A stretch of 63,372 nt of DNA, filler included, from Collodictyon triciliatum (GCA_043381765.1; 4 parts of 4 records of this genome joined end to end with filler, not necessarily neighbours in it), one strand, 5' to 3'. Numbered from the whole stretch's first letter, positions 12,227-44,196 are shown. Numbers and translations: made by a program. The notes: generated by a model from the sequence alone, not told the origin.

Positions 12227-15200
12227 ATGCTCATTATTCTGAAGCGAGATGTTTGTTCCTCGATCGAATCACAATCGCGGAGTGACGACGCACTTACTCG
12301 GGATAATTCCTTTGAGAAACATAGCAGTGAAACATATGGCATGGGCAGTACAGGCGAAGTACCCCCGGACTCACAAGACGAGATGGGGAATAATGGGGCC
12401 GTACCATTTTTCCATCAAAATCCGGGGTGGAACATTCCCAATGATACGTCTTATTCGAGTCCATCTTCTCCATCGGTCGGCCACAGGGAAATCCTCACAG
12501 AATTTTTCATACTGATGGAGGGAAAAGGCTGGAGAAATCACACGGGCTGGACAGAGCCTCATACATGTTATTGCGCCTGGTATGGAATTGGATGTCTTCC
12601 TTGTAACGAAATGCTGTGCCAGGTAGTCACTTATTTTGGTCATAATTTAAATAAAAATATCTTATTTAAAAAGAGAAAATACAAACAACACAAAACAAAA
12701 ATCACACGAAGGCACATAAAAACACATAAAAACACATAAAAACACATAAAAACACATAAAAACACATAAAAACACATAAAAACACATAAAAACACATAAA
12801 AACACATAAAAACACATAAAAACACATAAGATAAAATGTAAGACATTTCGAGAATGATGTATTTAATTTAAAACATTTACCACTCAGTAATTTGACCAAA
12901 AATTTCCAGATGAACGCATGCCTAGTAAATTCGATGCGATTATCAGAAAATGGTCTCAGAGGCAGATTGGACAATGTCACATCACTGCTGGAAAAACTAC
13001 CTGTGTTGATGTTCTTGGACTTGTCGCTGAACGAAATCGAAGGAACTCTGCCCGAAGTATCATTCCCGAGTCTAATCAGCCTCAATTTGATATACAATTC
13101 TTTGACTGGAGCCATCCCAACGTTTCAAAACACATCATCCATTTTATTCTTACGTGTTGGATACAACAATTTTAATGGGTCATTTCCTGACATCCAACTA
13201 CCCATGGCATTCTTCATCGAAATGAGCAGCAATCATATTTCCGGTAGCATGTCAGACCTTAAAAACATACCATCTACTACCATGTTTTTTGTAAACTTAA
13301 ACAATCTTCAAGGGTCTGTGCCTGACTTTTCGTCTATAAAGCTATCAAAATTTATAATGATGTCGGGTAATAACCTCTCAGGTAGTTTGCCGTCATTTCG
13401 GTACTTGCCAAATTTGATGTTTTTTCACGTCTCAGCAAATCAATTGACAGGTTCAATACCGGACTGTTCCAATATGCCACTATTACTCCGCCTAGATATA
13501 TCCACGAACGAATTTTCTGGAGGTCTTCCTATTGCAAACAGTATACCCCGCGTGATGCAACTTTATGCATTCAACAATAAATTGACCGGAGACATATCAG
13601 TAGTAACGGGTTATACTTTAATGAATACATTATCACTGGCCGAGAACATGCTTGCTGGAGAACTTGAATCGACCCGGTTCATGCCTATTCTGGTTAATTT
13701 GGACTTGTCTGTTAATAACATAACAGGGTCTATTCATGCGTTTTCTTTCAGCCCAGCCTTGCAATCCTTATTATTATTTAGAAATCAAATCACTGGGACG
13801 ATTCCGAATTTTCAATTGCCTAGATTACAATCTCTAGATGTTTCTGATAACAACTTATCAGGGACACTCCCCACATTTGATAAGTTAAAATCACTCTACT
13901 ACTTAGATGTGTCTGGTAACTCTTTACATGGTACATTACCAAAACAACTAGCAACTCTCACATCTCTTGTCGATGCTTTCTTCTCTTCGAATTGCTTTTC
14001 TGGGTCGCTAGACTTCAAATTCTTGTCCCTTCCTTACCTCTCTACATTAGATTTAAAGAGGAATTGCTTTGAAGAAAATCTGGAGACCTTCTACGTCAGG
14101 GAGTGGGACGGGAAAACAGTATTCAATCTTACTTATCTTTCTCTTGACTCCAACAAACTGAGTGGAACTATCGGATTTTATTCATATATACTGTTCCCTT
14201 ATCTTCGAGAGTTCACGATATCAAATAATTCGATTACGGCAATTTCTCCAGCACCATCACTCCGACCATGGAGAAACATAGACATATCAAACAATCCCAT
14301 ATCTGGCTCCATTCCCAACACTTGGAATCTGTTTTCCAAATTATCCTTACTGAATGTCACAGAAACGAAACTCTCCTGGAATAAAACTCAAAGCCTTCCT
14401 CCTTTTCTGATGCCATCAAAGCAGTTTCAAATCCAAACACCAGACTCTAACTTTATGTGCCCCAATATTGTGGGCACTAAATTGGGCACGACTGTGTATA
14501 TGGACCCAAGCTATTACAACTACAAATTCTGTCGCTGCTTGCCCAATCACTATGGGGAAGGGAGTCAGTGCTATGACTGCCCGTCTGCATGTGAGTGCTT
14601 GGGTGGCTCAAATATAACAGGATGTTTTCCAGTCATTTCCAAAAGTACAAGTAGAGCGTTACTCATCCAATGTCCGATGAAATCAGCTTGTAACCCATCT
14701 GCTGAGGAGGAATTCAAGTGCGAGAAAGGATATGAAGGGCGCCTTTGCTCCCGATGTTCTTCAGGCTATCACCAGCAAGGGCGGGAATGCATCGAGTGTT
14801 TGTCATTCTATCGATACTTTATTCCTGTTGCATACCCTATTGGAATAATAGCGCTAGTATGTTACTTGATATGGACTCCACCAAGAGCTACAGGTAAGAA
14901 GAAAAATTGTACTTTGAATAGTATCATATACAATATACTTGTGGCGATTCTTTTTTTTTGGTTTTGTTTTCTCTGCCCCAAAACACTGACTGAATTAGCT
15001 CAAACGCATATATGCTAACATATAGGGTCAATCAAAATATTCTTGTTTTATCTCCAGACATTATCAATATTGTCAACAATATACATGAACATCGGTGGGA
15101 TAACATCCTTTGTGGAAACATCTTTCGCAATATCAAGTTTGAATTTCCCCCTTATTCCATGCTTAATTGAAGAGCCAGGAATTGTAATCGTTACACTATT

Positions 15201-16860
15201 CAGTTACATGAGACTTCCGGTAATTGCGTTCTTTTTCTTCACTGGCTACCTAATCCTTAGCGATGAAAACAAAGACAAGGTAGTTTCTTGATGTTCTGAA
15301 AAAAAATCATCGTTTCTTTTCTTTTCTGTTGGTGAGATGGAAAACAATCTTGTGTTTTATTTCACGAAATATACTTTGAACCAAAACGTTAATGGATTTA
15401 TTGTTCACAACACAATTTCTAAAAACCACTCATAATATGTAAAACCTACATAGCTGGTATTCGTCATTCTATTCATGCTCCAGACGACATACTATGGAAT
15501 AAGTCGGGAGACATTTGGGACGTTCGGTTGCACTCTTTATGACCCATCCTCCGATGCATACTTTTTAAACTCCATTCCGTGGGTTCAGTGCAACCCAATA
15601 TCTGGAGAATACGGGCAGCTTCTAAAAATTTCCATACCCACGATGGTTCTGTATGTTTTATTGCTCCCAATTATTTTTTATGCTTTGCTTCAATCCATTC
15701 GGGATACAAAGAAGACAGACAAGGTTCAGAGAAGATATGGATTCCTCTATGTGTCTTTCCAAGAGGTAAATCCAAATCATCAATATTCCAAACATACTTT
15801 ATCATGATAGAAATGAGAAAAGAAATGAGAAAAGAAATGAAAAAAGAAAAGAAAAAAGAAAAGAAAAAGAAAAAAGAAAAGAAAAAAGAAAAGAAAAAAG
15901 AAAAGAAAAAAGAAAAGAAAAAAGAAAAGTTGATGGGGTATTCATCTTTCATTTTGATTATTTGTTAAGAGCACATTTACGGTTTTAATATTTATGGGTG
16001 ACTTGGTGGAATAATGTTGCAGATGTTTTATTTATATGATTTGTCGACATAAAAGGACTATCACTACTGGGAGATATACATTATGCTACGCAGGCTCGTG
16101 TTCAGTATGATTATGTCTGTTGTGCCATACACAGAGCCCACTGGACTCTTTGTCCTTATCTTCATCTTGCTTCAGGTACGCAAACATATCTAAATGATAC
16201 TTGTCACACATTAACATCAAAATTTATAATCAAATTTAATGAACGACTCACTAGAACATTTTTTTCTTTGCTAAAAGAACGAAATTCATGATTTGAGAGA
16301 ATTACACTGCATGATTCACATGAAAATAACACTACCTTTTCATCGCTAAAACTAACACATAAACCCTGTCTTTCACTCTGTCGAAAAAAAAGGTTTCCAT
16401 CTGGGTGCAACAATGGTGCTCTCCTTATGCACGCCCCATCGACAACCGCCTCGAGACATGGAGCCTTTATGTCATCTACTTTTCATTCTTTGGAGGAATC
16501 CTCGGCTCCTTCTACAAAGTGGCCTCGTGGCTGCCCCGCACCATCGTTTCCCTCAACGCCATCACCATCCTTGTGTTTCTGTACTACATTCTTGGTGTTC
16601 CCACATTGAGGTTCTTTCGTGACGTTTTTCGTTCAAAGGGACTCTTTTCTATCGAGAATCTCCCGGTCAGCAGCCCATCAACACCGGCCCCGTTCAGCAG
16701 CATCACTTCTATTGTGCCCGAATCTGCAGCCCACGAACTCAGTGATGACACGGGCAAAGCTATGCACAATAACAATTCGCTCACAGAGAACTCCCCACAT
16801 GCGATGTCTACATCCATCGTTTCAGTTGCAAAGCCTGCGTGGGTCTCTAAGATGGAGTGA
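12227..16860 (+). CDS. Receptor-like protein: LRR N-cap, many plant-type LRRs, Cys-rich region, multi-pass TM domain; 5' end uncertain (may start near 12.0 kb)
   Basis: GWRNHTGW...CAWYGIGC cap; repeated LxxLDLSxNxLxGxxP; CEKGYEGRLCSRC; hydrophobic segments plus RRYGFLY, YYWEIYIMLRRL and PYARPIDNRLE motifs. Confidence 0.85.
12713..12829. repeat. Intronic 10-bp tandem repeat (AAAACACATA)n
   Basis: Directly visible, about 11 copies. Confidence 0.95.
15808..15929. repeat. Intronic (AAAGAAAAAGAA)-type purine repeat
   Basis: Directly visible. Confidence 0.9.
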
Positions 16861-18008: not shown

Positions 18009-18129
18009 CTTAGTGTTAGTATGCCAGTCAGTTGGATACAAAATAGCCTTTCTGTGACACCATTACTTCTTTTGACATTGCAAGTATTACAAAAACTAAA
18101 CGTAAGATGAATTGGGTAAAAACAAGACG

Positions 18130-18242
18130 AAGCAAAGCAAAGCAAAGCAAAGCAAAGCAAAGCAAAGCAAAGCAAAGCAAAGCAAAGCAAAACAAAGCAA
18201 AACAAAACAAAACAAAACAAAACAAAACAAAACAAAACAAAA
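18130..18242. repeat. (AAAGC)n-(AAAAC)n compound microsatellite at contig end
   Basis: Directly visible. Confidence 0.95.
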
Positions 18243-18342
18243 NNNNNNNNNNNNNNNNNNNNNNNNNNNNNNNNNNNNNNNNNNNNTTAATTAATTAANN
18301 NNNNNNNNNNNNNNNNNNNNNNNNNNNNNNNNNNNNNNNNNN
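18243..18342. other. Artificial contig linker N44-TTAATTAATTAA-N44
   Basis: Identical 100-nt spacer occurs three times; the core has stops in all six frames. Confidence 0.98.
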
Positions 18343-18401
18343 ATCAAAAGATAAAATAAAAATATAAGTTGATGTAATCGCTACCGTCATGAAAAACCAT
18401 T

Positions 18402-18506
18402 AAAAACCCATAAAACCCATAAAACCCATAAAACCCATAAAACCCATAAAACCCATAAAACCCATAAAACCCATAAAACCCATAAAACCCATAAAATCCA
18501 TAAAAT
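18402..18506. repeat. 9-bp tandem repeat (AAAACCCAT)n
   Basis: Directly visible, about 11 copies. Confidence 0.95.
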
Positions 18507-18658
18507 CAAAACGAACACTCTTTTTCCACTGCCTATCCTTTTTATTCAGTATCAGATCCTAGGCAAGAAATCCTTTCTTTTCCATATATCTTTTCGAGAG
18601 CGACATTCGTTTTCACCTTTTAATAAAAGCCTCACAACAAAAACAGCTTAGCTGAGCA

Positions 18659-21600
18659 ATGGAAATTGAGTGCACCTGTCCCTGTTGTGGGAAAACCTTT
18701 GCCGATCCGCGCATTCTTCCCTGCAAGCACGTTTATTGCGTCAATTGCGTCCAAAAGATGAGCAAAACGCCAGTCGATCTGCTTGACGCAAGCAAAGGAA
18801 CAAAGTCGTGCTGCTTTATCTGTGAGGCTGCGTTTACACTCACGAATGGAAAGCCAGAGAGTCTTCCGCGAGCTGAGGAATATTTGGGCTATGTCGAGAC
18901 ATATAAAAATGCGGCAACGTTTGTGTCCCTCAAATGCGTGGAGCATACAGATAAAGAGGCAATCAAGAGGTGCCTGAGCGGGTGCAGCCACATTTGCCAG
19001 GATTGTTTTTCTGCTCATAGAATTTTGTTGAAAGTTCATAAAATCGAGTACGTCATTATTCATTTTACTTTTAATATGTCAACTTAAATTAGGAAAACAT
19101 GTCTGCAGCATTTCTGCAATTCGAATGCATATACCTTTTCATTTACCTTTTTCCATTTTTTTAAAGGGATATCGACAAAACAAGGCCTGTCGTTTTTGAG
19201 AGTGCCTGTTCGAAACATGCACAACCTTTTACAAAAGTTTGTGGCAAACTCTCAGAAAACCCTTTCATGCGTGATATGTGCACTGGGAGTCACTTCGAAG
19301 AACTAGGAATTCATGAGCATGACAGCTATGAGGCTGGCACAAAGAAATTTTTTCAGCATCTCCAAGAAAACAAGGCGAAAATCGAAAAAACTGGAGACTT
19401 GATAAAAGAAAGTGAGAAAAGAGTCGAGGGAAAGCGCAAAAAGGTATCCATCGCAACTGTATTCGTTCTTTAACAATAAAAACATGAAACCTCATTATCT
19501 CTTTGGGTATAAATCAGATTGAAAATTATATCTCGGAACTGAAGAGAGAAGCGTCGAGCGAGTTCGAAAAAGCAAAGAATGCTATCGCCGAAGAGGAAAG
19601 GCGATTCATGGAGAAGGTTCATATTTTTAAGACTGTCGATTTTATCTTTGAAAATAATTGGATTTTAAGTAATTTATTCATAAAAGATTTCCCACTCACT
19701 CTCTTTCATATAGATTGACCAATTCAACAAATCCATTCTGGGGCCATATGTTGCACTCGGGGATTTCTTGGAAACGTTCAAAATTCATCTGGCGTATTCA
19801 TCAAAGTTTATTGACGAGTCTATCCTTGTGTTTACAAAAGACAAGTCGCCTCTTAAGCTGCCAACTGCAAAGCGCATTTCATATTGTGTATTGCAGAAAA
19901 AAATAGTGCAAATTCCTGAAGAAACGCAAGTTTTCTCGGAGAAAATTCCAACATTGGTTCTCTTTCCTAAAAAATCATCTGAAGTCGAATCTGTGCCAAA
20001 TTCCCAACGACTAGGCACCATAACAGGGCAAAGACAGACTGAAAAGATTTCCAATCCAAGCGCACCAACACAGTCCAACCAACCAGCCAGATCAACATCG
20101 GTGGTCATTCCAGTCAAAAACACTCCAAGAGAATCTGTTACAACCAAAATAAACCGAGTGATTGACCAGATTGGAGAGTCAACAGCTGCAATCAAACAAA
20201 AACAACTAATGGGATGCCCAGAGTATGGCGCATTGGGACAGCAGATGGGCGAGTTACAAACTTTAATGCAACAAACTGAATTCAAAGAAGCACCAAAGAA
20301 AGAGATTGGTGGCATTTTCGACAAATTATTCGAAGCAATCAAAAAGGTACAACTTAATTCATATATATGAACTTGTCTACAATTAGGAAATGATTTTATT
20401 CGTAACATCCTCAAATTATTAAAAAGGACGTAAGTTTTCTATCTTTCCAAAATATCCTGTAAATTAGCAGGTATTTTCTAATCTTGTCAAATTATATTAG
20501 TTGGTGAGTATATATAATTCATGAAAAAATAATTGAGTGCGACTTAATCTATATTTTTTCGTGAAAAAAAATTAGTTTTAATAATCACTTTTAATCGATT
20601 TCAGGTGACTATAATTTTCATTCCATTGTTATTATGATTTATTTGAATTAAAAAATGAAAATATGCTTAACAAAATTTCTGCTAAAAATGATTCAAAATC
20701 ATAGATAGTAATTTTTCTGCTTGAAAGAATAAATTCATAAATCATAAGGAAAATATACATTGTTTATGTAAATTATAGCATATGAGTATGAATTCTAACT
20801 GTTGAGTATTTTAACTGACAGATACCAAAATACTAAAATCAAATATATCGCATCATATACCTAAATTTCATTTGAAATCATAGTATGTAAAATTTTGTTA
20901 TTATTGAATAATACTATGTTATGATATTGCCAATAAACGTACGTGTGTTAATGCAAATAAGTCATGGATATGATAAAAGGAAATGCGTGTTTAACCAACG
21001 CGGACATGAATTCGTATTAATACAATATATGATTTCTGTAACTTATTTGTACATAATCATAGTATGTAAGTTTTTATTGTTCTTGGATGATACTGTATTA
21101 TGAAAATGATAAGAATCGATCGCACATGTGATTATGTAAATATGGGATGACTATTATAAAAGGAAATGCATATTCAACATACACACACGAGTTCGCAATA
21201 ATACAATATTTATGTGATTTCTGTGAATTATTTGTGCATAATCTTAGCCTGTAAGTTTTTATTGTTCTTGGATGATACTAAATTATGAAATTGAAAAAAG
21301 AAGCTTATATTTGTTAGTTATATATGTGATGACTATGATAAAGGACATGTGTGTTCAACAGACACATAAGACTACGCAATAATACAATAATTAATGATTT
21401 CTGTGACTTATTTGTACGCATAATTATAGGGAGTAAGTTTTTATTGCTCTTGAATGATAATCTATTATGAAAATGACAAGAAAGGAGCATGCATATGTTA
21501 GTGTAAATACGTAATGGTTATAATGAAAGGACATGGGTGTTGAAAAGACACACACGAAATTGCAACAATACAATAATCTATGATTTCTGTGATTAATTTG

Positions 21601-24600
21601 TGTGTAACCATAGGTTGTAAGTTTTTAATTTTCTTTGATGATAATCTATTATGAAAATGACACGAATCAAGCATACGTGTGAAAATGTAAAGATAGAATA
21701 GCTAAGATAAAAGGAAATGGGTGTTCAACTGACACACACGAGCTCGCAAAAACACAATACTGACATGATTTCTGTGACTTATTTGATTATAATCACAGAT
21801 GGTAAGTTTTTAATGCTCTTGAACGATAATATATTATGAAAATGACAAGAAAGAAGCATGCATATGTTGATGTAAATACGTAATGATTATAATGAAACAA
21901 TATGTGTGTTCAACAGAAACACATACGAATTCGCAATAATTTAATAATTATATGATTTCTCCAACTCCTTTGTCTATAATCATAGTTCGTAAGTTTCTAT
22001 TATTCTTGAATGATAATATATTATGAAAATGATAAGAAGCATACATTTATTTACCTATATACGTGAAGACAATGATAAATGAAATGAGCGTTTAACAGGC
22101 ACACACGAATTCGCAATAATACAATATTATATTATTCTGTGACTTATTTCATTATTATCATCAAAGAATGTAATTTTTTATTGTTCTTTAATGATACTGT
22201 ATTATGAAAATGATAAGAATCGATCGCACATATTATTATGTAAATATGTAATGACTATGATAAGATGAAATGTATATTTAACAGACATATACGAATTTTC
22301 AATAATAAAATATTTATACGATTTCTGTGACTTATTTGATTATAAACATAGCTTGTAAGTTTATATCGTTCTTGAATGACATTATATTATGAAAAATTAC
22401 AAATAAGAATATTTTATTTGTTTATGCATTTATGGAATTACCATGACTAAAGAAATGAAAGTGTTTAACAGACACACACGAATTCTCAATAATATAAGAA
22501 TTATATGAATTCTGTTACTTGTGTGTATAATTATAGGTTGTAAGTTCCTTTTGTTCATAAATGATACTATATTATGAAAATGACAAGAAAGAAGCATACA
22601 TTTGTGCATGTAAATATGGGATGACTATGATAAAATGAAATGTATGTTTAACAGACATATACGAATTCCCAATAATTCAATATTTGTATGATTTATGTGA
22701 CTTATTTCATTATAATCATCAAAGGATGTGAGTTTTTAATATTACTGAATCATAACCTATTATGAAAATGAAAAGAAGCATACACCTATTTATGTATAAT
22801 ATATATGGAATTACTATGATAAAAGGAAATGGGTATTCAAAAGACACACGAATTCTCAACAATTTAATAATTACAAGAATTCTGTTACTTGTGTGTATAA
22901 TTATAGTTTGTAAGTTCCTTTTGTTCATAAATGATAATGTATTATTAAAATGACAAGAAAGAAGCATACATTTGTGCATGTAAATATGGGATGGCTATGA
23001 TAAAAGGAAATGGGTGTTTAACCGGTACATGCGATTTCTCAGAAATACAATATTTTTTGTGATTTATTTTCTATTGTAATCATAGCATGTAAGTTTTTAA
23101 TGTTCTTGAACCAGTAAAATATTATAAAATGACATGAAAGAAGCATACATTTGTTTATGTAGATTTGAGATGATGAAAGGAATGAGGGTTTTTAACAGAC
23201 ACACATGAATTCTCAATAATAAAATATTTATATGATTCATGTGGCAAATTTGTTTATAATAATAGCCTGTAAGTTTCTATGATAATTGATGGCATTTTAT
23301 TATGATAATGACAAGAAAGAAGCATACATGTTTTTATGTAAATTTGGGATGAATATGATAAAAGGAATGAAAGTTTTTAACAGACACACACGAATTTTCA
23401 AAAATACAATATTTATATGATTTACTAACTCATTTTTGCGTAACAATAATAGTATGTAAGTTATTATTGTTCTTGGATACAATAAATATAAAATATCAAG
23501 GAAAAAACATAAATTTGTAAATGTAAATTTGGGATGAATATGATAAAAGGAATAAACGTTTTTTATAGACTCACACGAATTCTCAATAATATAATAATTA
23601 TATGATTTCTGTGACTTATTTGTGTTCAATCATAGCTTGTAAGTTTTTATTGTTTTTTAATGATGCCATAATACTATAAAATATCAAGGAAAAACACAAA
23701 TTTGTTTATAGATTTATGGGATGGCTATGATAAAAGAAATGGATGTTCAACAGACACACACGAATTCTCCATGATACAATATTTATATGATTTCTGTGAT
23801 TTTTTGTGCATACATATATATAGGTTGTAAGTTTTAATTATTCCCGATTGATACTATAGTATGAAAATGACAAGAATCAAGCATTCATTTGTTAATGCAA
23901 ATATGAGATGAACATGATAAAAGAAATGGAATTTCAACCGACACACTAGAATTAGTAATAACAAAATATTTATATAATTTCTGTGACTTATGTGTATAAT
24001 CGTAGTATCTAAGATATATTTGCTCTTTAATTATAAGATATTATGAAAATGAGAATAAGCAAGCACACATTTTTCCATTTAAATATGTGATGACTATGAT
24101 AAAAGGAAATGTGTGTTTAACAGACAAATGCGAATTTGAAGTAACATGTCATTTTGTGCAATTTATACGATTTATGCGCATAATTATAGTTCGTAAGTTT
24201 CTATTGTTCTTAAATGATACTATATTATGAAAATGACAAGAAACGAGCATGCTCATGTTAATGTCAATATGTGATAATATGATAAAAGGACATGCATGTT
24301 TAACCGACGCGCACATGAATTCGCAATAATACAATATATATATGTGATTTCTATGAATTTCGTGTTTAATCAAAGGATGTAAGTTTCTGTTGTTCTTTAA
24401 TGATACTATATAATGAAAATGACAAGAAAAGAGCATGCTCATGTTAATGTAAAAATGTGATGATTATGATAAAAGGAAATGTGTGTTCAACAGACACACG
24501 AAAACGAAATAATACAATATTTATATGATTACTGTGACCTTTTTATGAGTAACCATAGGGAGTGAGATTTATTGTTCTTGAATGATACTTTATTATGAAA

Positions 24601-27600
24601 ATGTTGAAATAAGTATATATTTTTACGAAAATATGTGATGGATATGATAGAAGGAAATGCGTGTTTAAAAGACACAAAAACTCGCAATAATACAATTTAT
24701 ATGATTTCTGCGAATTATTTGATTATAATCATAGCGAGTAAGTTTTTATTGTTTATGAGTGATACTTTGTTATGAAAATGACAACAAGTATACATTTGTT
24801 AATGTAAATATGTGATGATTATGACAAAAGGAAATGCGTGTTTGACAGACACACGAATTCGAAATAATACAATATTTATATGATTTCTGTGACTTATTTG
24901 ATTATAATCATAGCGAGTAAGTTTTTATTGTTTATGAGTGATACTTTATTATAAAAATGACAACAAGCATACATTTGTTAATGTAAATATGTGATGATTA
25001 TTACAAAAGGAAATGCGTGTTTGACAGACAAACGAATTCGCAATAATACAATATTTATATGATTTCTGCAATTTTTTGTGAATAATCGTAGGTTGTAAGT
25101 TTTAATTGTTCGTGAATCATACTATATTATGAAAATTACATGAAAAAACCATACTTAGTCAATGCAAATATGTGATGATTATGAAAAAAGGAAATGCGTG
25201 TTTGACAGACAAACGAATTCGCAATAATAAATTATTTATATGATTTCTGTGACTTATTTGATTATAATCATAGCGAGTAAGCTTTTATTGTTCATTAATG
25301 ATACTATAATATAAAAATGACAAGAAAAAAAGCATATTTAGTTAATATAAATATGTGATAATTATGATAAAATGAAATGAGTGTTAAACCGACACGCACG
25401 AATTCTCAACAATAAAATATTCATATGATATCTGTGACTTTTTTGTGAATAACCATAGGGAGTAAGTTTTTTGTTATTATTGAATCATAATATATTATGA
25501 ATTTGAAAAGAAAGAAGAATAAATTTATGTATTTAAAAATATGATCGATATGATAGAAGGAAATTGTTTCTTAATAGAAACACTCAAATTTGCAATAATA
25601 CAATATTTATATCATTTCTGTCACTTATTTGTGTATAATCATAGCTTGTAAATTTTCGTTCCTATTTAATTATACTTTATAATGAAAATGACAAGAAATA
25701 AGCATGTATTTGTTAATATAAATATAAAACGACTACGACAAAATGTTATGGATGTTAAATAGACACACACGAATTCGAAAAAATACAATATTTATATGAT
25801 TTTTGACTTATTTGTGTACAATCTTAGCGTGTAAGCTATTATTGTTCTTGAATGATATCGCATTTTGAAATTGTCAAGATAGAAGCATTCTTTTGTGTAG
25901 GCAAATATGAATTGACTATGATAAATGGAAATTTATTTTAAACATACAGAAACTAATCCGCAATAATACAATATTTAAATGGTTTCTGTTACTCGTTTGT
26001 AATTATGATAGGTTGTGAGTTTTTATTTTTTCAACTGATAACACAATAAGATATGAAATTTCATTAAATTAAGAAGCTATCGTTTATTATTTTCGTATGA
26101 AACTAGGAATATGTGGTTAATTTATATGATATTTAAAAGACAATTGAATTCTTAATCCAATATCAATTCAATTTTGTATGTTTTTTCTGCAAATGTCACA
26201 ATCATACAATTCCATGCATTTTAATTTCGTTTGATAAGCTGATATTAATTTTTATTCTATCTTATTCTTGATGACTGATTCAGGAGGTAAGTTTCAAGTC
26301 AATATAGGTTAAACAAAAATATGATAGTTAAAGTATGTTTAATTCTAAACCAATTAAGAGAATTAAAAATTCAAACATCATTTACGCAGAAACCAGCGGA
26401 TGTAATTTGGCGAAATTAATTCTGAATAGATTATTATATTTATTCACTTTACTAATTTTATGTTCATATTTAGCTGGTAACTAAAAGAATAATGAATTTT
26501 TATCATTCATAATTCTGAAATTATAATAACTTTACTAATTTAAATTATATCCAGGATAAGGTAAGTCAAATTCTATATCCTTTATTTTCTCCAAAATAAC
26601 AAATCGCAGTTTAATAAAATTCATTATCTATGTTGGTTAAAAACACTAGGATTTTGTGGGTTTCTAATATATTAGATTAAATATTATCTTTATTTCCAAT
26701 TCTAAGCTTTCCTTGTTTAAAATGTCACTTCTGATTATAATTATTTTAATTAAAAATTAATTTTCATTAAAAATTTATTTCAAAACATCAAATGCCATAT
26801 TTTAAAATTTTCAATAACATTCATTAAATTTTAAAGGGAGTATGCTTTCTCGAATTTTTTTTCGAAATTGAAATCAACAGTGTGCTTAATCAATTATTTG
26901 TGAAAAGGGAGTAACCATTCTTTTGATATTTTGAATATTATTCAATTAAATGAAAATAGTATTTTAAAGGATGTATTTTCTTAATCTTAAAATCAGGATG
27001 TGAGATTATAGAATCAAAATGATATTTATTTTGTAAAATATTTATGTCAACATCCAATAATTTACCAACAGGACGTAATTTGCTAATATATATAAAATTG
27101 ATAGAAACACTTTCTACTCACACATTTTTGTAAGCTGGCTGTAAGAATAATAAATTAAAATAAGACAAAAATTAAAATCCATAATATTAACCTCGTCTTT
27201 CTTTAGCTTCGGCTGGTAAAAATTACCATTTTAAAATCAAAAAGTTCAGTACAGCTATACTTCGATTCTTAATATCTTTTCCTCAGGTTAAGATTGTAAT
27301 CTGATATTTTTTGTTATTTTGGAGGGAATCAAAATTTTAATCAAATGCTGTAAAAGGCTGTAAGCTTTAATATTCATTCAAATATCAGAATATGCTTTCA
27401 GATCCTAACCATAATGTTCTACAAATTTCAATCAGCGAGAAATGGTATTTATTTTTCATCGCTCATTTAAACATCATTCATTAACTGACACACAAAACAG
27501 AAGCAACTGGTATTTTGTAATCAATTCCATCGTGTCAATTAATCTACTTCCATTCTAGAGCCTCATAATTTTCCTAGTATCAATAACATCTGCATTCTTA

Positions 27601-27930
27601 TTATTAGGCGGTTTGCTTTATAATTTTCAATTTGAAATCAAACCTTTTTTTCCTTTATTCGATTCAGATTATATTTGAAATCAGGGATGTTTTATTTACA
27701 CACTGATGATATGCTCATTTTTTTATCAGGGAGACTCGGTATACATGAACGCCTTATTCCTCATTTAAATTATCCCGTAATTGGTATCTTATAATTTCAT
27801 TCTTTTATAAAAACCTTTATTTTTAATGTTATTTCAGAATATCCACGTAAGATTTCTATTCCATTTCAATAATAAAACAATAATCCCTTAATCTTATAAG
27901 CCATGTGATTATGCTTTTGTTGCAAAATGA
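18659..27930 (+). CDS. TRIM-like RING / B-box / coiled-coil protein; conventional exons 18659-19048, 19167-19443, 19518-19616, 19714-20346, then a predicted chain of about 45 microexons and a terminal exon 27901-27930
   Basis: RING CPCC..PCKHVYCVNC..CFIC; B-box CVEH..CLSGCSHICQDCFSAH; second B-box-like CSKH; coiled coil. Exon 4 ends in phase 0 (AAG|GTAC) and downstream AG|3n|GT units continue without a stop to PCDYAFVAK*. The RBCC part is well supported; the 3' extension is inferred. Confidence 0.7.
20690..26040 (+). repeat. Tandem array of 30 AT-rich units (period 176-188 bp), each an intron-like repeat plus a variable 3-nt microexon
   Basis: Conserved ...gatttctgtgacttattt...aatcatAG|NNN|GTaagttttt...atgaaaatgacaag... 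in each unit; 29 of 30 units keep both AG and GT. Confidence 0.9.
26284..27930 (+). other. Series of 3-, 6-, 9- and 12-nt in-frame microexons separated by non-repetitive ~55-180-nt introns, plus terminal exon
   Basis: AG|exon|GT at 26284-6, 26390-401, 26474-6, 26555-60, 26650-5, 26837-9, 26908-10, 26997-9, 27072-4, 27135-40, 27207-15, 27287-95, 27357-9, 27436-44, 27501-9, 27608-10, 27730-8, 27838-46. Confidence 0.7.
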
Positions 27931-30900
27931 AATTTAAACCGAAGCCTCCAAAAACAATTAATCATTCTGGGAACAGCAGGGATAAGGTTTTATTTCATAT
28001 CAAACACATTTATGTTAGTCCTCTTCATTCTTTTAAAATAGAAATATGTAATGTTATTTTTTTGTTGACCTAACTACTGATTCGAAAATGCAGCCAGACT
28101 ATTCATTTTTTTATGGTCGCTTGGATAAGTGCGACTCTCGAGTTGTAAGTGTCTCGATTTCAAAATTGGTTGACGTTCTCTTGAATTAAATTTTATAACT
28201 TTATTAATCAATTATGAATTTCTTTAAAAAGAAATGCGACGGCGCTGACTTGACTCTTCTCATCTCTTCCTCTTGCTTCTACTTCTCACACTCTCACGGC
28301 CGGGTTTTTTTAAGCACAAGCTTTTTTCCCGAGAGCCATTCCCCTTATTCTACTTTCATTCTTTCATCCACTACCGAAACACAAATAAAAATGAAAACAG
28401 AACCAGATGAATAAGATTCCTTCCTTGATTTACAAAAAGAATGTCTGTTTTTGGATTAAAAACGGTAATTAATAGGCCAAAATACTATAACCATACTGCA
28501 CACCAGCAATGCTGTAAAAAAGCTTGCTGTATTTTAACATGAATAATTCCATTTACTTGTTGATGTTAAATGTCACTTGTTTTAAATATTAATGCGTGCT
28601 ATGTTTATCTCTCGAAAATATTGTCCTTTTGGAAAACCTAAGTAACGAATAGATTTTTCATCAAAATACGTAATAGTTTCTTAGTTTGATTATATCAAAT
28701 ATTATGCTAAATACAACCAGGTTAAATATTTTTGAACTGGATATCTATGAAGGGCAAACAATAAAAAAAATTTGGAATATGGTCTGGACAATTAGACTCA
28801 TGAAAGTTTTGTCAAAATGACCATTCATGAAAGCAATTTCAAATGGGTAATTTTTCCTCTTTTTTGAAATTTCAGATAGTTCTCTTAAATTATAATCAAT
28901 CACAAACAAGAGTGACAAAATGATTTTATTAAAGAAAATCAGACGAAATAGAGAAGAATTGTTTTTTTTTAAGAAAAGTGTTTAAGTTTCCAAGGAAAAG
29001 AAACAGTGCTTTAATAATTGAAATTCCGACGGTGATATTCACCGTTTTGAAAATCATTATTGGTCCAAAATAGCATGTTACATTCATTCCTATCCTTTTG
29101 TATTGTTTCTTGTTTTCTTAAAATTCTATTGAAGAAAACTGGAGTCGACTCAGCATCCCAACAGACCAAGGTTATCGAGATATGAACTAAATTTTTTGAA
29201 TGCTTAGTTGAAGTTTTTTGAAACTTTTTATGAATCAATACTCTTCAGTTTAGCGGGCATTAAAAATTCCACTCTTTGTCTCAGATAATCCTCTATTACG
29301 AAGGTTACACATTTGAAGACTACTCATGTATGACATGGCCACAAAATATAAAGGGAAGAATTTCTATCCGTATTGCAGCCTAAAAACTTGAAGTGAATTA
29401 TTAATATCTTTTGCACAAAATATTGTCTCTCAAGATGCAAGTCTTCAGCACGTTCTCAGGAAGTCGTTTTTTCCTCGAAAATTCCCTTAAAAGAGTGAAC
29501 TCTATTTTTTTGGAGATAAAACCGAAAATTTTCATATAATTTGTCTATAGTTTAAATTCGATAAGATAAATATTCGAAGAGGAAATGAAGTATATAGCAG
29601 ACTATAACTATTTATGTGACTCATCGTTTCCTTCCTCGCCCAGGTTTTTTTTGTATTTTCGTCTTTTTATAACGCTCAGATTTATCGGAACCGGTGGCAA
29701 TTTTTCTCAACTATTCATGTATTTCATTTACAAAATAAGTGTATTGCACGAATAATGGCCACTATTTTGTTCTGAAAGGGCAATAGCACAGAGACACCCT
29801 TTCTATCTCAATTTTTTTTTGTTAAATTTCGGATTATTTGTCTGAAGAGTTCATTTTCGAATTTTGATGAGGAATGATAGCCAACTAAAGCATAATAAAT
29901 AGAATTCATAGCTAATAAATGGGGCAATATATTTAATATGGGCGATTTATTTACGAGACTCCACAATATTCAATTTGGATGTAATTTGATGATATCTGTT
30001 GCAATAACAGATAATTGATTTGAATGCGATGAAGGCACACTCTCTTCTATGCGGTTATATTTATACATTTAATTATAGCGAGTCTATTTTCTCAGAAAAT
30101 TTGGTATATGGTTCACTAGAATCAGTGACATCAAAAGCGCTATATTATCTCTTAGAAGTCCGATGTATTTCTGCATCATTAACTGAAACAATAATACGAA
30201 ATGACGTTGCATATTCAAAAAAATTTTCCATGGTCGAACTCAAGAAATACAAAAACTTTACAACATCTAATATTAGAATGACCAGCGTCAATAACTTTCG
30301 TTACCCGATGAAAATCAGTATGACATATTTCGATTACAAAATTCTTGATCTTGACTCTGTCAAATCCAAAATCACGGATCATAATATATTTTCTATCAGG
30401 CAACATGAAATCAGCTAAAATCAGCTAAACTGATAACGATTATGTCGCCAATGATTACTTTCCTTCCATTCAATTATAACCGAGCCTTAATTTTAGTTGA
30501 CTTTAAAATGCGACACAAAAAACACTGGGCTTTACGTGTGCAGATAATTCGTGTCCATGTTATTGAATTCATAATCATTTCCTTGCTTACAAAAAATATC
30601 ATTAATTAGATCTTACCGATAGATATTGATAAAATTTGGTCCTTTGTTTGCACGCGTTGAATGTATAGTTTCGGGGTACTCTTCAGACATTCCAGCGTGA
30701 CTTCTTCTGTGATGATTACAAGGCTGATTATTTCTGTACTTGCCCCAAATCAATGGACTTTAAGAATTATAGGCTATATGCCCCATAAAATTTGCACATA
30801 TAGACTGATATTGCCATTATATTCAATAGCCGTATAGGTATGAACGTGGATAATCGCTTTTGAAGAGAAAAAGACGAGAGTGACGTCAGGATTGGTACTA

Positions 30901-34982: not shown

Positions 34983-36578
34983 TTATTCGTGTGAGTCGGA
35001 AGGATGAGATCGAATGAAAGAAAGTAAAAAGGAGGTTAAGCAAAATGCTTCACTTGGCGCGCAACTCGTCACGGGCCCTCCTCCTATCCAAGCGATGTTG
35101 AATAAATCACACAAGTATGTCGAATCATTCGTTGAACAAAAAACAGTGTTGCAAAAGTTTGGGGAAGAAGAGAAAGAGGATGACCCAGAAACTTGTGACA
35201 GGTTATGAGTGGAACAGGAAGCAGTTATGGTAAAAACAGATATTGGGAAGCGTTGTTGTACCTCAGAGCCACTTTCGTAAATCGCAAGCTCCACGTTTCC
35301 TTTTGCCTTTGAACGAAGCAGTGTGTATTGCTCGCTGATGCTGCGGTGGCGATTCCACAACACACCTACCACAACCAAAAGGAAAATAACCACTGCGACG
35401 GAGCCGACAACCGCCATCACCGGAACAGGGAATTCATCTGAACCGTATTAATTCGTATTTAAGATGAAGGTGGCTTGTTGTAGTGATGCTAGAAGAGTTG
35501 AGGCAAGTCAAGTCAAGTCAAGTCAAGTCAAGTCAAGTCAAGTCAAGTCAAGTCAAGTCAAGTCAAGTCAAGTCAAGTCAAGTCAAATCAAATCAAATCA
35601 AATCAAATCAAATCAAATCAAATCAAATCAAATCAAATCAAATCAAATCAAATCAAATCAAATCAAATCAAATAGCGAATAGAGCTATGAATGAGGAAGT
35701 TAAGTTTTGTTTGGCCTTTTCTGGTTTGCCCACAATACCGCAGTCCTCGATAATATCTTTCGGTTCGTCTCCAAAGCAGGTGGAAAGTTTCAGATGTGTT
35801 GTCAAGCGTCGACCGTTTTCGCAGCGCCCTTGGAAAGGCTTCAGGTCAGCGGCCTTGCAAACGGGGCATCCATACTTTGAAGTCCAGCGGATGACGTGGT
35901 TGCATTCTTCTTCTGTAGCGTTGAAGACAGGAATCCCCTTTTCGTAGTTCGGGTCACATTCGAATCGTATAGTGCTAGCGGTTAATTTGTTCATTTATTT
36001 ATTTTAATCAATTGTAATTCTTAATTTTGTCTGTGAATAAGATTATAAGTTTGGATAAATTAATGCCGTTCGAATCTCAAAGATTGTATTGTTGTCAGCC
36101 ATACGTTGAGAGACCGTCGGGACATTTCTTTGTGGATTTTCCATTGGAATAGATAACGACCAGGCCTTCCAGTCCCTGGGCTAAGATATGGGTGGAATTG
36201 TTTTAATAGGTATGTATATTAAGACTTAGATTACAAACACATCAGGATACATGACATGGGCATGCTTAATTAGGTTGGTGTTGATTATATTCTCACCGAA
36301 ACTCATGTAGCTTCCTGTGTTTGAGTGACTATCGACAGAACTTGCCTTCATTTTGTAAAGTGGTATTTTATTAAAAAAAAAAAAAAAAAGTAATCGTAAA
36401 GTGACGGCTTCGGGGGTGTGAGAAAAATAGGAGAAAGCATACCTAAGAAACATCAACGCGTCTAAAAATATTGCAATATAATATGTCCTTACAAAAAAAA
36501 AATTAAAGGGAGAAAATACCATGCAAGCAAACGGCTGTTGGGAGCACAGCGAATCCACTGGCGTGGGCCTCTTGCACA
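34983..36578 (-). CDS. C-terminal part of a type I membrane protein with an MRH (mannose-6-phosphate-receptor homology)-like domain, ELAPOR/KIAA1324-like; 5' truncated by gap
   Basis: STIRFECDP...ECNHVIRWTSKYGCPVC, Cys-rich linker, TM VMAVVGSVAVVIFLLVVVGVLW, cytosolic YTLL motif; 3' end uncertain. Confidence 0.65.
35504..35672. repeat. Intronic compound microsatellite (AAGTC)n-(AAATC)n
   Basis: Directly visible. Confidence 0.95.
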
Positions 36579-36678
36579 NNNNNNNNNNNNNNNNNNNNNN
36601 NNNNNNNNNNNNNNNNNNNNNNTTAATTAATTAANNNNNNNNNNNNNNNNNNNNNNNNNNNNNNNNNNNNNNNNNNNN
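36579..36678. other. Artificial contig linker
   Basis: N44-TTAATTAATTAA-N44. Confidence 0.98.
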
Positions 36679-43200: not shown

Positions 43201-43634
43201 GAAAGAGAAAAAAGGAAAAGAAAAGAAGAAATGAAATGAAAAATGAAAAAAGAAAAAAGACAAAGAAGAAACAAACTGCTCGCGTCCATCCTTTCGTTCG
43301 AGATCGGAACCGGGGACGAGACCCGCTTCAAAGGTGGGAGTCCGTCCCCCACGTATGCAATTGCGTTTGCGAGGTGCGGCGGAGTCGGTGGGCCGGAGGA
43401 GGCGGCTGAGCTGAGATCAGACTTTGACTCGGGGCGCGACGCCTGCGGCTGTGCGAAGGGCGCATCGTCCGTGGGAGTTGTGTAGCCCGAGCGGATCGGC
43501 AGCGGCGGCGGAGGCGGAGGCGGCAGCGGAGGCGTCGGGGAAGCAGACGGGGACGGCGGTTCGCTTCCGATCGCCTCTGTTGTGCCGCTCGTGTGGGACG
43601 CAGAGAGTGGAGATGGGGTGTGTTCTTGGCTCAT
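37275..43634 (-). CDS. VIP1: Inositol hexakisphosphate/diphosphoinositol-pentakisphosphate kinase (PPIP5K/Vip1), multi-exon
   Basis: [51 protein letters not shown], phosphatase [49 protein letters not shown]. Confidence 0.96.
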
Positions 43635-43639
43635 GCTTT

Positions 43640-44041
43640 TCTATTTTGTTTTTGTTGTTGTTTTGTTGTTTTGTTTGTTGTTTTTTTGTTGTTTTTTTGT
43701 TGTTTTTTTGTTTTTTTGTTTTTTTGTTTTTTTGTTTTTTTGTTTTTTTGTTTTTTTGTTTTTTTGTTTTTTTGTTTTTTTGTTTTTTGTTTTTTGTTTT
43801 TTTGTTTTTTTTGTTGTTTTTTGTTGTTTTTGTTTTTTGTTTTTTTGTTTTTTTGTTGTTTTTGTTTTTTGTTTTTTTGTTTTTTTTGTTTTTTTTGTTT
43901 TTTTTTTGTTTTTTTGTTTTTTGTTTTGTTTTTAATTTTGTTTTTGTTGTTTTTTGTTTTGTTTTGTTTTGTTTTGTTTTGTTTTGTTTTGTTTTGTTTT
44001 GTTTTGTTTTGTTTTGTTTTGTTTTGTTTTGTTTTGTTTTT
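43640..44041. repeat. ~400-bp T/G low-complexity tract ending in (GTTTT)n
   Basis: Directly visible; immediately upstream of the PPIP5K start codon. Confidence 0.95.
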
Positions 44042-44196
44042 ATATCCGCCGCTCCTGCTGTGTCTCCGACCTTTGAGATTTATAGTGTGCTTGTGGCAAA
44101 CGCCCCAATGTCTGAGAAATGGCGCCCGTCTTGATTTCGCAGGCTGGGCAATTTTTTGACATCGGGGTGTATTCGGTCTTGAAGGCTGGAAGGTGC

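What the first reader, a model, noticed from the sequence alone, without database searches (positions are those of the whole stretch)
20690..26040. Tandem array of 30 single-codon (3-nt) microexons hidden in a ~183-bp 'satellite'
Seen in sequence: every repeat unit has an acceptor, exactly 3 nt, then a donor (YAG/AAG|NNN|GTRAG-like). The flanks are conserved while the triplet varies. Triplets by start position: ATA 20705, TAT 20884, TAT 21063, CCT 21248, GGA 21430, GTT 21614, ATG 21799, TTC 21986, AAT 22167, CTT 22352, GTT 22537, GAT 22725, TTT 22907, CAT 23086, CCT 23266, TAT 23453, CTT 23636, GTT 23824, TAT 24006 (donor lost), TTC 24190, GAT 24376, GGA 24559, CGA 24735, CGA 24914, GTT 25092, CGA 25274, GGA 25459, CTT 25645, CGT 25828, GTT 26012. 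That is 14 distinct triplets encoding 12 amino acids, with no stop codon in phase 0 despite very AT-rich DNA. The upstream exon ends in phase 0, so full inclusion reads IYYPGVMFNLVDFHPYLV(Y)FDGRRVRGLRV. Inference: each unit is an intron plus a one-amino-acid exon, so any skipping pattern keeps frame, and splicing or unequal recombination could produce a very large set of peptide variants at single-residue resolution. It resembles Schistosoma micro-exon genes or Dscam in concept, but I know of no description of repeat-unit single-codon cassettes. ORF finders cannot see it.
Basis: partly seen in the sequence, partly recalled or inferred. Interest (0 to 1): 0.96.

Follow-up and report, generated by a model that had tools for sequence, protein, structure and literature searches.

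The report
Thirty one-codon exons in tandem
Behind a RING/B-box gene lies a 5.3-kb repeat that reads as thirty short introns, each separated by one codon; this would be an exceptional run of one-amino-acid exons, but no RNA data could be found to prove they are spliced.

Summary
All 30 triplets sit where stated, in a 185-bp tandem array. AG is 30/30 and GT 29/30. The triplet is the most variable 3-column window of the unit, ranking 1 of 181.

Triplets differ 2.5 times more than the surrounding intron in 15 independent nearest pairs (27/45 against 10.75 expected, P=2.6e-7). They do not follow intron relatedness.

In 26041-27960, 19 of 26 candidates keep frame, against 36% elsewhere on this strand and 31% on the opposite strand. 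They are GC-rich (0.505 against 0.247), have 54-103-nt introns, and end in a stop-bearing last exon.

With four ordinary exons (RING, B-box) this gives one open frame of 540 codons.

I read it as a micro-exon gene outside flatworms, part of which grew by duplicating a one-codon exon with its intron.

No RNA run, genome, orthologue or publication could be found, so splicing is inferred, and diversification by exon skipping is untested.

The parts
18659..19047 (+). Exon 1 of the host gene: start codon, RING finger and B-box-like zinc finger. Donor GTACGT, ends in phase 2.
   Evidence: Pfam PF13445 at 25.6 bits (cut-off 25.2); PF00643 B-box at 20.1 bits (below cut-off 24.1). Boundaries and frame checked. 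128 distant RING/B-box relatives, best 36% identity.
19167..19443 (+). Exon 2, lysine- and glutamate-rich and coiled-coil-like by eye. Acceptor AG, donor GTATCC.
   Evidence: Hand-built model. The joined frame is open. No Pfam hit.
19518..19616 (+). Exon 3. Acceptor CAG, donor GTTCAT, ends in phase 0.
   Evidence: This is the only donor that joins the two open frames (intron 97 nt). Checked.
19714..20346 (+). Exon 4: 211 codons, no known domain, phase 0 at both ends. Donor GTACAA. If unspliced, the frame stops 24 nt later.
   Evidence: No Pfam family. No homologue in two word-indexed searches.
20427..20503 (+). Two candidate 3-nt microexons before the array: GAC at 20427 and TTG at 20501, with introns of 80 and 71 nt. 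A third candidate (CAG at 20468) would leave introns of 38 and 30 nt.
20661..26087 (+). Tandem array of 30 copies of a ~183-bp unit. Each unit is one intron (173-185 nt for the typical ones) plus one triplet. GC is 0.26.
20705..26014 (+). The 30 candidate one-codon exons, at the start positions listed in the finding. Each is bounded by AG and by GTAAG-like sequence.
24006..24008 (+). The one unit whose donor is lost (CTAAGA).
   Evidence: An open frame at 24006-24230 is listed.
26284..27846 (+). Sixteen candidate microexons in unique DNA: 3 nt at 26284, 26474, 26837, 26908, 26970 (or 26997), 27072 and 27357; 6 nt at 26555 and 27135; 9 nt at 27207, 27287, 27436, 27501, 27730 and 27838; 12 nt at 26390. 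Introns are mostly 54-103 nt.
   Evidence: Not homologous to the repeat unit.
27901..27930 (+). Candidate last coding exon: 9 codons plus TGA, after acceptor TAAG.
   Evidence: Closes the 540-codon frame.

Best explanation
This is the 3' part of a protein-coding gene of the micro-exon type, in an unidentified eukaryote.

Four ordinary exons encode a RING, B-box and coiled-coil-like protein. The transcript is inferred to run on for 7.6 kb through about 49 tiny exons, all 3, 6, 9 or 12 nt and all in phase 0, and to end in a 30-nt exon with the stop codon.

Thirty of these exons are single codons that lie in a tandem repeat. An ancestral unit of one-codon exon plus ~180-nt intron was multiplied by unequal crossing-over. 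Each unit is removed as a self-contained short intron:
- a strong GTAAGT donor, which makes up for an exon that lacks the usual -1 G;
- a CTTAT-like branch site about 20 nt upstream;
- an ATAG acceptor.
Each splice leaves one codon in the mRNA.

The introns keep being mixed by recombination or gene conversion. The codons do not follow them, which means selection acts on the codons, whether to keep them or to diversify them.

Full inclusion would add about 74 residues to the C-terminus, 30 of them from the array.

Shown: the sequence anatomy and its statistics. Inferred: transcription through the region, splicing, translation, and any exon skipping.
For: 1. Splice dinucleotides are invariant in a diverged repeat. 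AG is 30/30 and GT 29/30, while the mean column has 5.4 departures and pairwise intron distance is 0.29.

2. The triplet is the most variable 3-column window: 1.04 bits against 1.80 for the next, and rank 1 of 181 by differences in nearest pairs.
- In 15 independent nearest pairs, 27 of 45 triplet positions differ against 10.75 expected from the flanks (P=2.6e-7).
- In the 8 closest pairs, 14 of 24 differ against 3.93 expected (P=3.7e-6).
- Codon positions 1 and 2 vary more (0.74, 0.71) than position 3 (0.51).

3. Triplets are independent of intron genealogy. The 28 pairs sharing a triplet are no closer in their flanks (0.294) than the other 407 pairs (0.300). Nearest neighbours by left and right flank agree in 2 of 30 units.

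4. The architecture continues in DNA that is not homologous to the repeat.
- In 26041-27960 on the + strand, 19 of 26 candidates of 1-12 nt are multiples of 3.
- Controls: 270/750 elsewhere on +, 219/704 on the whole - strand, 16/51 on the - strand of the locus, and 24/74 and 13/50 in AT-rich control DNA.
- In a sliding scan of both strands, only windows inside 21001-29000 on + reach P<0.01.

5. The chosen downstream microexons have GC 0.505 in a region of 0.247 (0 of 10000 random draws reach it). Regex controls have 0.38-0.40. Array triplets have 0.356 against 0.257.

6. Predicted introns of 54-103 nt resemble hand-inferred real introns of the window, which are 74-118 nt in the host gene and about 85-110 nt in the VIP1 gene.

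7. One open frame of 540 codons runs from the ATG at 18659 to the TGA at 27928-27930.

8. The array donors are much stronger than ordinary donors here. GTAAGT is 20/30 in the array, against 0 of about 10 hand-inferred introns. From general knowledge of 5' splice-site compensation, this is expected when the exon cannot contribute.
Against: - No RNA evidence of any kind and no orthologue. Every step after transcription is inferred.
- The exon-4 donor (GTACAA) is weak, and an in-frame stop follows 24 nt later. A transcript that ends or stays unspliced there would give a complete 473-residue protein without the microexons.
- The downstream chain was picked with a regular expression and by eye. Alternatives exist (20468; 26970 against 26997; possible extra sites in the 220-276-nt introns). 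Donors in this genome are so degenerate that candidate density in the region equals background (26 in 1.9 kb against 750 in 55.7 kb). Only the frame bias stands out.
- Absence of stops in the array is not significant once the triplets' own composition is used (P=0.41).
- One unit has lost its donor and the first two are degenerate.
- I found no published run of consecutive 3-nt exons. Whether a spliceosome can process one is unknown.
- The excess variability of the triplet proves selection only if the intron is close to neutral.
Confidence: 0.6

Rival explanations
1. The gene is a real micro-exon gene, but the array is now a dead intronic satellite. It descends from one true microexon plus intron, and the whole 5.8 kb between about 20504 and 26283 is removed as one intron or by variable cryptic steps. 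The 30 triplets would then be pseudo-exons that never reach the mature mRNA.
For: - One donor is already lost and two units are degenerate.
- The stop-free run is not significant.
- The peptide encoded by the array is compositionally odd: 20 of 30 triplets end in T.
- The unique microexons on both sides would give a complete in-frame tail without the array.
Against: - A dead satellite should lose AG and GT at the rate of other columns. Observed departures are 0, 0, 1, 0 against a mean of 5.4. The chance that four given columns all fall among the 27 of 183 with at most one departure is about 5e-4.
- It should also homogenise or diverge its triplets along with the flanks. Instead they differ 2.5-fold more and ignore flank relatedness.
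- All other hand-inferred introns of the window are about 75-120 nt. A single 5.8-kb intron would be about 50 times longer.
Confidence: 0.2
2. There is no coding function. The region is intergenic, 3'-untranslated, or a non-coding transcript. The AG-NNN-GTAAG core is conserved for another reason, for example U1 snRNP binding that suppresses premature polyadenylation in AT-rich RNA, or a DNA-level protein-binding site of the satellite.
For: - The host protein can end just after exon 4.
- No homologue of any part of the tail was found.
- No RNA support.
Against: - It does not explain why AG is invariant as well as GT.
- It does not explain why the spacer is exactly 3 nt in 30 of 30 units.
- It does not explain why unrelated flanking DNA shows a strand-specific excess of 3n-length AG...GT intervals (19/26) with raised GC.
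- It does not explain why everything joins into one open frame ending in a stop.
Confidence: 0.08
3. The repeat is a host for intron-encoded small RNAs such as C/D-box snoRNAs, one per intron. The splice sites are kept so that the RNA is released from the lariat, and the tiny exons are irrelevant and free to vary.
For: - One sub-threshold Rfam match, snoZ163 (C/D box), at 22066-22145: 21.7 bits against a gathering score of 39, E=0.4.
- The model would explain conserved introns with variable exons.
Against: - Only 1 of 30 units gives even that weak match.
- A C box (RTGATGA) is present in 8 of 27 introns, and any CTGA in 2 of 27.
- RNAalifold predicts 0 conserved pairs in 27 aligned introns.
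- A candidate 6-bp hairpin does no better than shuffles (128-178 of 500 reach the observed values) or slid controls.
- The model does not predict 3n lengths in the unique flanking microexons.
Confidence: 0.03
4. This rival concerns origin only. The triplets were never copies of one another. A mobile, introner-like intron inserted again and again into a pre-existing 90-nt exon at codon boundaries, so the codons are old unique sequence and only the introns are related.
For: - Triplets are as different as unrelated sequence (pairwise 0.65) while introns are at 0.29.
- Triplet identity is uncorrelated with intron relatedness.
Against: - No copy of the unit lies anywhere else in the 63-kb window. 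The 5 single motif hits in the metagenome contigs show no array.
- Thirty insertions at exact 3-nt spacing has no known mechanism.
- Several young pairs carry identical or one-step triplets (CGA/CGA, GTT/TTT, TAT/AAT), as expected from DNA-level duplication of the whole unit.
Confidence: 0.07

Closest known systems
Micro-exon genes (MEGs) of parasitic flatworms (Schistosoma, Echinococcus, Hymenolepis)
   Same: They have runs of very short exons whose lengths are divisible by three, so that skipping keeps frame and proteins can differ by as little as one residue (passages of 10.1101/2020.04.08.031872). Exons of 3-81 bp are reported (abstract and passages of PMC10526429). The predicted model here meets the operational MEG definition given.
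   Different: - MEG products start with a signal peptide and are secreted. This gene starts with a RING finger and has no hydrophobic N-terminus.
- MEG introns are long, up to 5 kb. Here they are 54-276 nt.
- The organism is not a flatworm as far as can be told. Its VIP1 kinase fragment has no hit above 56% identity (best 56% over 44% of the query; 37-44% for hits covering most of it), and the closest hits are plants, oomycetes, animals and Physarum.
- The MEG texts I read mention no run of single-codon exons inside a tandem repeat.
Tandemly repeated 81-base exons in Schistosoma mansoni transcripts (Davis et al. 1988)
   Same: Exon-plus-intron units multiplied in tandem within a gene now classed as a MEG.
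   Different: Those exons are 81 nt, not 3 nt. I saw only the title, in the reference list of PMC10526429. The paper itself is not held, so no further comparison was possible.
Isolated 3-nt exons in animals and other eukaryotes (RPS24, MAP4K5, PICALM, Amphidinium)
   Same: They show that a spliceosome can include an exon of exactly 3 nt: RPS24 microexons of 3, 18 and 22 bp (listing abstract of PMC12207440); a conserved three-base exon in MAP4K5 (title of PMC8632122); exons as short as 3 nt in a dinoflagellate (passage of PMC12584245).
   Different: These are single exons or groups of up to three, in unique sequence. They are not tens of consecutive one-codon exons in a repeat.
Combinatorially spliced mini-exons of fast skeletal troponin T (TNNT3)
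   Same: A block of small cassette exons (exons 4-8) near one end of the protein is alternatively spliced to give many isoforms (start of the abstract of PMC2447309 in the listing).
   Different: There are five exons, each longer than one codon (recalled), and they are not in a tandem repeat. Inclusion patterns there are shown experimentally; here they are untested.
Recursive splice sites (ratchet points) in long introns (recalled, no paper read)
   Same: A 3' splice site motif lies right next to a strong GTAAGT donor, repeatedly along a long stretch. This would let a long sequence be removed piecewise.
   Different: Ratchet points have zero nucleotides between AG and GT and leave nothing in the mRNA. 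Here 3 nt lie between them in 30 of 30 units, so each step would add a codon. One zero-length AG|GT junction does exist at 20605.
Dscam-type arrays of tandemly duplicated alternative exons
   Same: Exon arrays made by tandem duplication are used to diversify one protein (abstracts in the listing; PMC9013439 abstract).
   Different: Dscam exons are full-size and mutually exclusive. Here the exons are one codon each, and nothing suggests mutual exclusion. No conserved RNA pairing was predicted in the introns.

Membership tests
Micro-exon gene (operational definition of 10.1101/2020.04.08.031872, section 'Identification of micro-exon genes') | At least 7 exons; micro-exons (<70 nt, divisible by 3) make up at least half of them; a run of at least 4 consecutive micro-exons | tested here: met
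   The predicted model has 4 ordinary exons plus 49 micro-exons of 3-30 nt, all divisible by 3 and all consecutive. The model is predicted from DNA, not taken from an annotation or from transcripts.
Micro-exon gene (flatworm MEG family) | N-terminal signal peptide; secreted product | tested here: not met
   The N-terminus is a RING finger (PF13445). The highest 12-residue Kyte-Doolittle mean in the first 40 residues is 0.89. No dedicated signal-peptide predictor was available.
Micro-exon gene (flatworm MEG family) | Transcript variants produced by skipping micro-exons | not testable with these tools
   No RNA run could be listed. No genome is held.
Micro-exon gene (flatworm MEG family) | Sequence relationship to a known MEG family | tested here: inconclusive
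   Exon 4 has no homologue. The joined tail could be compared only with the 128 stored RING relatives, without a significant match (best E=0.85). It could not be sent to the large databases.
TRIM / RBCC E3 ligases | N-terminal RING finger | tested here: met
   PF13445 zf-RING_UBOX at 25.6 bits, above the cut-off of 25.2, residues 8-37.
TRIM / RBCC E3 ligases | B-box zinc finger after the RING | tested here: inconclusive
   PF00643 at 20.1 bits, E=7.4e-4, below the cut-off of 24.1. Many of the 128 distant relatives align over residues 6-123, that is across both fingers.
TRIM / RBCC E3 ligases | Coiled coil after the B-box | not tested
   Judged by eye only, from the charged heptad-like sequence of exons 2-3. 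No predictor was run.
Recursive splice site (ratchet point) | 3' splice site directly abutting a 5' splice site, with zero exonic nucleotides | tested here: not met
   Exactly 3 nt lie between AG and GT in 30 of 30 units.
C/D-box snoRNA host gene | Conserved C box (RUGAUGA) and D box (CUGA) in each intron | tested here: not met
   C box in 8 of 27 introns and any CTGA in 2 of 27. Only one Rfam match, below threshold.
Introner-like mobile introns | Many dispersed, near-identical copies in unrelated genes | tested here: inconclusive
   No copy outside the array in the 63-kb window. The metagenome contigs gave 5 single hits of the degenerate junction motif, with no repeat array at them. The organism's genome was not available.
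Dscam-type mutually exclusive exon cluster | Docking and selector RNA pairings that enforce the choice of one exon | not tested
   RNAalifold found no conserved pairs inside the unit. Pairing to a site outside the array was not searched.

The most novel reading that the evidence does not exclude
The array is a working combinatorial cassette. Each of about 29 one-codon exons can be included or skipped independently without changing frame. A single RING/B-box E3-ligase gene would then produce a huge repertoire (up to about 2^29) of C-terminal tails that differ at single-residue resolution. Unequal crossing-over would also reshuffle the array between individuals. This would be a splicing-based diversity generator fused to a ubiquitin ligase in a eukaryote with no close relative among the proteins I searched, possibly serving recognition of variable targets, as the variable C-terminal domains of animal TRIMs do.
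Probability: 0.15. Interest if true: 0.95.

Novelty: new variant of a known kind. Interest (0 to 1): 0.8.

Why it matters
If the triplets are spliced in, this is a run of thirty consecutive exons at the one-codon lower limit. None of the papers I searched or read describes anything like it. It would be a natural test of how a spliceosome handles an exon that consists only of the -3 to -1 positions of a donor.

It would also extend the micro-exon gene design, known from parasitic flatworms, to an unrelated eukaryote and to an intracellular-looking RING/B-box protein. It would show that a satellite-like repeat can be coding sequence that ORF finders and standard gene predictors cannot see.

The decoupling of codons from their homogenised introns is a clean system for studying selection on minimal exons. 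It also makes two questions directly testable with one RT-PCR or long-read cDNA experiment:
- Can frame-neutral one-codon cassettes generate protein diversity?
- Do tandem intron-exon units evolve like minisatellites?

If the array turns out to be skipped as a block, it is still a useful example of a pseudo-exon satellite that keeps perfect splice motifs.

Tried and rejected
Access and data routes:
- Whole genome: none is held for this window.
- RNA: no RNA holder was listed for 18650-20350. That used the single search, so read laying could not be used.

Homologues:
- Exon 4: none at E<=0.001 among proteins of 371-2000 residues (719 candidates) or 116-370 residues (83 candidates).
- Organism: the VIP1-kinase open frame (579 aa) gave 1657 hits. 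The best identities are only 37-56%, spread over plants, oomycetes, animals, a Physarum transcript and unnamed EukProt transcripts. Only proteins of 318-1014 residues were searched and the true protein is probably longer, so even this is weak. The organism stays unidentified.
- Orthologues of the RING/B-box exon, sought so that their C-termini could be compared with the predicted tail: 128 hits at E<=0.001, best 36% identity, E=2.9e-12. None resembles the tail or exon 4 (best E=0.85 and 0.017 against those 128).

Related arrays elsewhere:
- The junction motif in metagenome contigs gave 5 single matches (after two unanswered tries). None carries the repeat: one 36-nt profile hit at the motif itself.
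- Another micro-exon locus in the window: none. The sliding scan flags only 21-29 kb on the + strand.

Structured or small RNA in the intron:
- Rfam gave one sub-threshold snoRNA hit.
- RNAalifold predicted 0 pairs.
- C and D boxes are not conserved.
- A (TG)n/(CA)n hairpin that looked compensatory by eye is no better than shuffles or slid controls.

Literature:
- Searches found no tandem array of single-codon exons.
- The Hymenolepis preprint's "array of micro-exons genes" is an array of genes.
- The Amphidinium paper only notes isolated 3-nt exons.
- Davis et al. 1988 is not held.

Stop codons: absence of stops turned out to be weak evidence.

Full report
WHAT IS THERE

The window is eukaryotic DNA with spliced genes: Rad51-like, proteasome ATPase-like, a VIP1-type kinase and an LRR receptor-like gene.

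Tandem Repeats Finder reports one array at 20876-26027, with period 185, 28.1 copies and 73% matches. A profile built from the units finds 30 head-to-tail copies at 20661-26087 on the + strand and no copy elsewhere in the 63 kb.

- Acceptors are TAG 26, AAG 3, CAG 1.
- Donor hexamers are GTAAGT 20, seven other GT variants 9, and CTAAGA once, at 24006.
- Spacing is 176-188 nt.

IS IT MORE THAN CHANCE?

In the alignment of the 30 units, AG is invariant, and G-T-A-A-G is kept in 29, 30, 27, 30 and 26 of 30 units. The three triplet columns carry 0.12, 0.22 and 0.70 bits, against a mean of 1.22 bits elsewhere.

The triplet is the least conserved 3-column window of the unit (1.04 bits against 1.80 for the next). 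It sits between columns that belong to the 27 of 183 with at most one departure from consensus. The mean column has 5.4 departures.

I paired units greedily by lowest flank distance, giving 15 independent pairs that cover all 30 units.
- The flanks predict 10.75 differences in the 45 triplet positions. 27 are seen (binomial P=2.6e-7).
- Among the 181 three-column windows, the triplet ranks first.
- For the 8 closest pairs the figures are 14 of 24 against 3.93 expected (P=3.7e-6).
- Codon positions 1 and 2 differ more often (0.74, 0.71) than position 3 (0.51). The intron mean is 0.29.

The triplets also ignore the genealogy of their introns.
- The 28 pairs of units with the same triplet are no closer in their flanks (0.294) than the 407 other pairs (0.300).
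- The nearest relative of a unit's left flank is also the nearest relative of its right flank in only 2 of 30 units.

So the introns are mosaics that keep being recombined or converted, while the codons between them are not carried along. A repeat with no function at the triplet should homogenise or diverge there as elsewhere. This pattern needs selection on the codons, either to keep them or to diversify them. The alternative is an origin in which the codons were never copies of each other (rival 5).

The same architecture continues outside the repeat.
- Between exon 4 and the array lie AG|GAC|GTAAGT (20427) and AG|TTG|GTGAGT (20501).
- After the array come sites of 3, 12, 3, 6, 3, 3, 3, 3, 6, 9, 9, 3, 9, 9, 9 and 9 nt.
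- The series ends in a 30-nt exon with TGA at 27928-27930.

This DNA is not homologous to the repeat unit. I used one fixed pattern: AG, then 1-12 nt, then GT[AG][ACT].
- In 26041-27960 on the + strand, 19 of 26 candidates are multiples of three.
- The controls are 270/750 elsewhere on that strand, 219/704 on the whole opposite strand, 16/51 on the opposite strand of the locus, and 24/74 and 13/50 in other AT-rich DNA.
- In a sliding scan of both strands, only windows within 21001-29000 on + reach P<0.01.

Candidate density itself is not raised. The frame bias is the signal.

The chosen downstream microexons have GC 0.505 in a region of 0.247 (0 of 10000 random draws reach it). Control hits have 0.38-0.40.

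Predicted introns are mostly 54-103 nt. This resembles the introns I inferred by hand in the host gene (74-118 nt) and in the VIP1 gene with the help of tblastn.

THE HOST GENE

I built the model by hand:
- Exons are 18659-19047, 19167-19443, 19518-19616 and 19714-20346. They join into 466 codons without a stop.
- Exon 1 carries a RING finger (PF13445, above cut-off) and a B-box-like finger (below cut-off).
- Exon 4 has no family and no homologue.
- With all candidate microexons the frame stays open for 540 codons and then stops.
- The N-terminus is not signal-peptide-like.

Ordinary donors of this genome look degenerate (GTACGT, GTATCC, GTTCAT, GTACAA, GTTTTC, GTAAAT, GTACTC, GTAATT; hand-inferred). 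The array uses the full GTAAGT in 20 of 30 units.

By the known compensation between exonic and intronic donor positions (general knowledge, not tested here), that is what a donor needs when its exon has only three variable bases, and T rather than G at -1 in 20 of 30 cases.

HOW IT MOST LIKELY WORKS (INFERRED)

The pre-mRNA runs on past exon 4. Each short intron is recognised as a unit and removed, leaving one codon per repeat.

The array grew by unequal crossing-over of exon-plus-intron units. The evidence is as follows:
- Neighbours 24735 and 24914 have flank distance 0.075 and the same triplet.
- Units 22537 and 22907 have flank distance 0.112 and triplets one step apart.
- Units 21063 and 22167 likewise have triplets one step apart.

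Because all candidate exons are phase 0-0, any skipping keeps frame. Whether skipping happens is unknown.

The unit at 24006 has lost its donor. Use of its acceptor up to the next donor would give a 187-nt, frame-shifting exon, so it is probably skipped.

RIVALS

1. A dead intronic satellite derived from a true microexon (0.2). It fits the degenerate units but not the invariance of AG/GT or the behaviour of the triplets.

2. No coding function at all (0.08). It does not explain the exact 3-nt spacing, the AG invariance, or the strand-specific 3n bias in unrelated DNA.

3. A small-RNA host (0.03). One Rfam hit is below threshold. Boxes are present in 8 and 2 of 27 introns. No conserved pairs are predicted. 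A hairpin seen by eye is no better than controls.

4. An introner-like spread into an old exon, as an origin story (0.07). No dispersed copies were found in the window, the 5 metagenome motif hits show no array, and young pairs with identical or one-step triplets argue for duplication of whole units.

COMPARISON WITH WHAT IS KNOWN

The closest kind is the flatworm micro-exon gene.
- It has runs of exons divisible by three that allow single-residue variation by skipping.
- Its exons are 3-81 bp.
- The predicted model meets that paper's operational definition.
- It fails the signal-peptide feature, has short rather than long introns, and comes from an organism whose VIP1 kinase fragment has no hit above 56% identity in the database searched. 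I therefore do not file it in the flatworm family.

Tandemly repeated 81-base exons in Schistosoma are known to me only from a title in a reference list (paper not held).

Single 3-nt exons are documented in animals and a dinoflagellate.

Six full-text searches found no tandem array of one-codon exons. Supplementary exon tables could not be opened.

LIMITS

The downstream chain is one of several possible choices. The real intron sample is small and hand-made.

VERDICT

The microexon reading is well supported by sequence statistics but unproven. Diversification by splicing is untested. Its probability of being real (about 0.6) and the lack of any similar case in print make it well worth one cDNA experiment.

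Noticed in passing
window 26970-26999: Two candidate 3-nt exons with the same codon (GAT) lie only 24 nt apart: AG|GAT|GTATTT at 26970 and AG|GAT|GTGAGA at 26997. The gap is too short for an intron here, so at most one can be used per transcript. This may be a small mutually exclusive pair.
   Followed up: no
window 20599-20612: A zero-length junction, TTTCAG directly followed by GTGACT. It resembles a recursive splice site and lies in the 201-nt interval before the first array unit.
   Followed up: no
window 12835-15018 (+), continuing to about 15800: A long open frame encodes plant-type leucine-rich repeats, a cysteine-rich DUF7630 domain (PF24633, 28.3 bits) and hydrophobic segments. It is a receptor-like membrane protein next to the RING/B-box gene.
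   Followed up: partly
window 18243-18342, 36579-36678, 54894-54993: Three pairs of 44-N runs, each pair separated by 12 bases, are spaced about 18.3 kb apart. The regular spacing looks like masking or scaffolding rather than biology. None touches the array.
   Followed up: no
window 15780-15990, 18050-18560, 35480-35700, 43420-44240: Long microsatellite-like tracts, for example a 9-mer repeat that reads FYG/KPI in several frames and 15-mer repeats that read KQNKT/KQSKA. They are frequent in intergenic and intronic DNA of this window.
   Followed up: no
window 37899-42313 (-): A VIP1/PPIP5K-type inositol pyrophosphate kinase gene with several short introns and large lineage-specific insertions. 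The best database identities are only 37-56%.
   Followed up: partly
window 62944-63372 (-): The end of an open frame with a reverse-transcriptase-associated zinc-binding motif. It is probably a LINE-like retroelement cut by the window edge. Judged by eye only.
   Followed up: no
window 22066-22145 (+): A sub-threshold Rfam match to the C/D-box family snoZ163 (21.7 bits, E=0.4) inside one array intron. It is not shared by the other units.
   Followed up: yes
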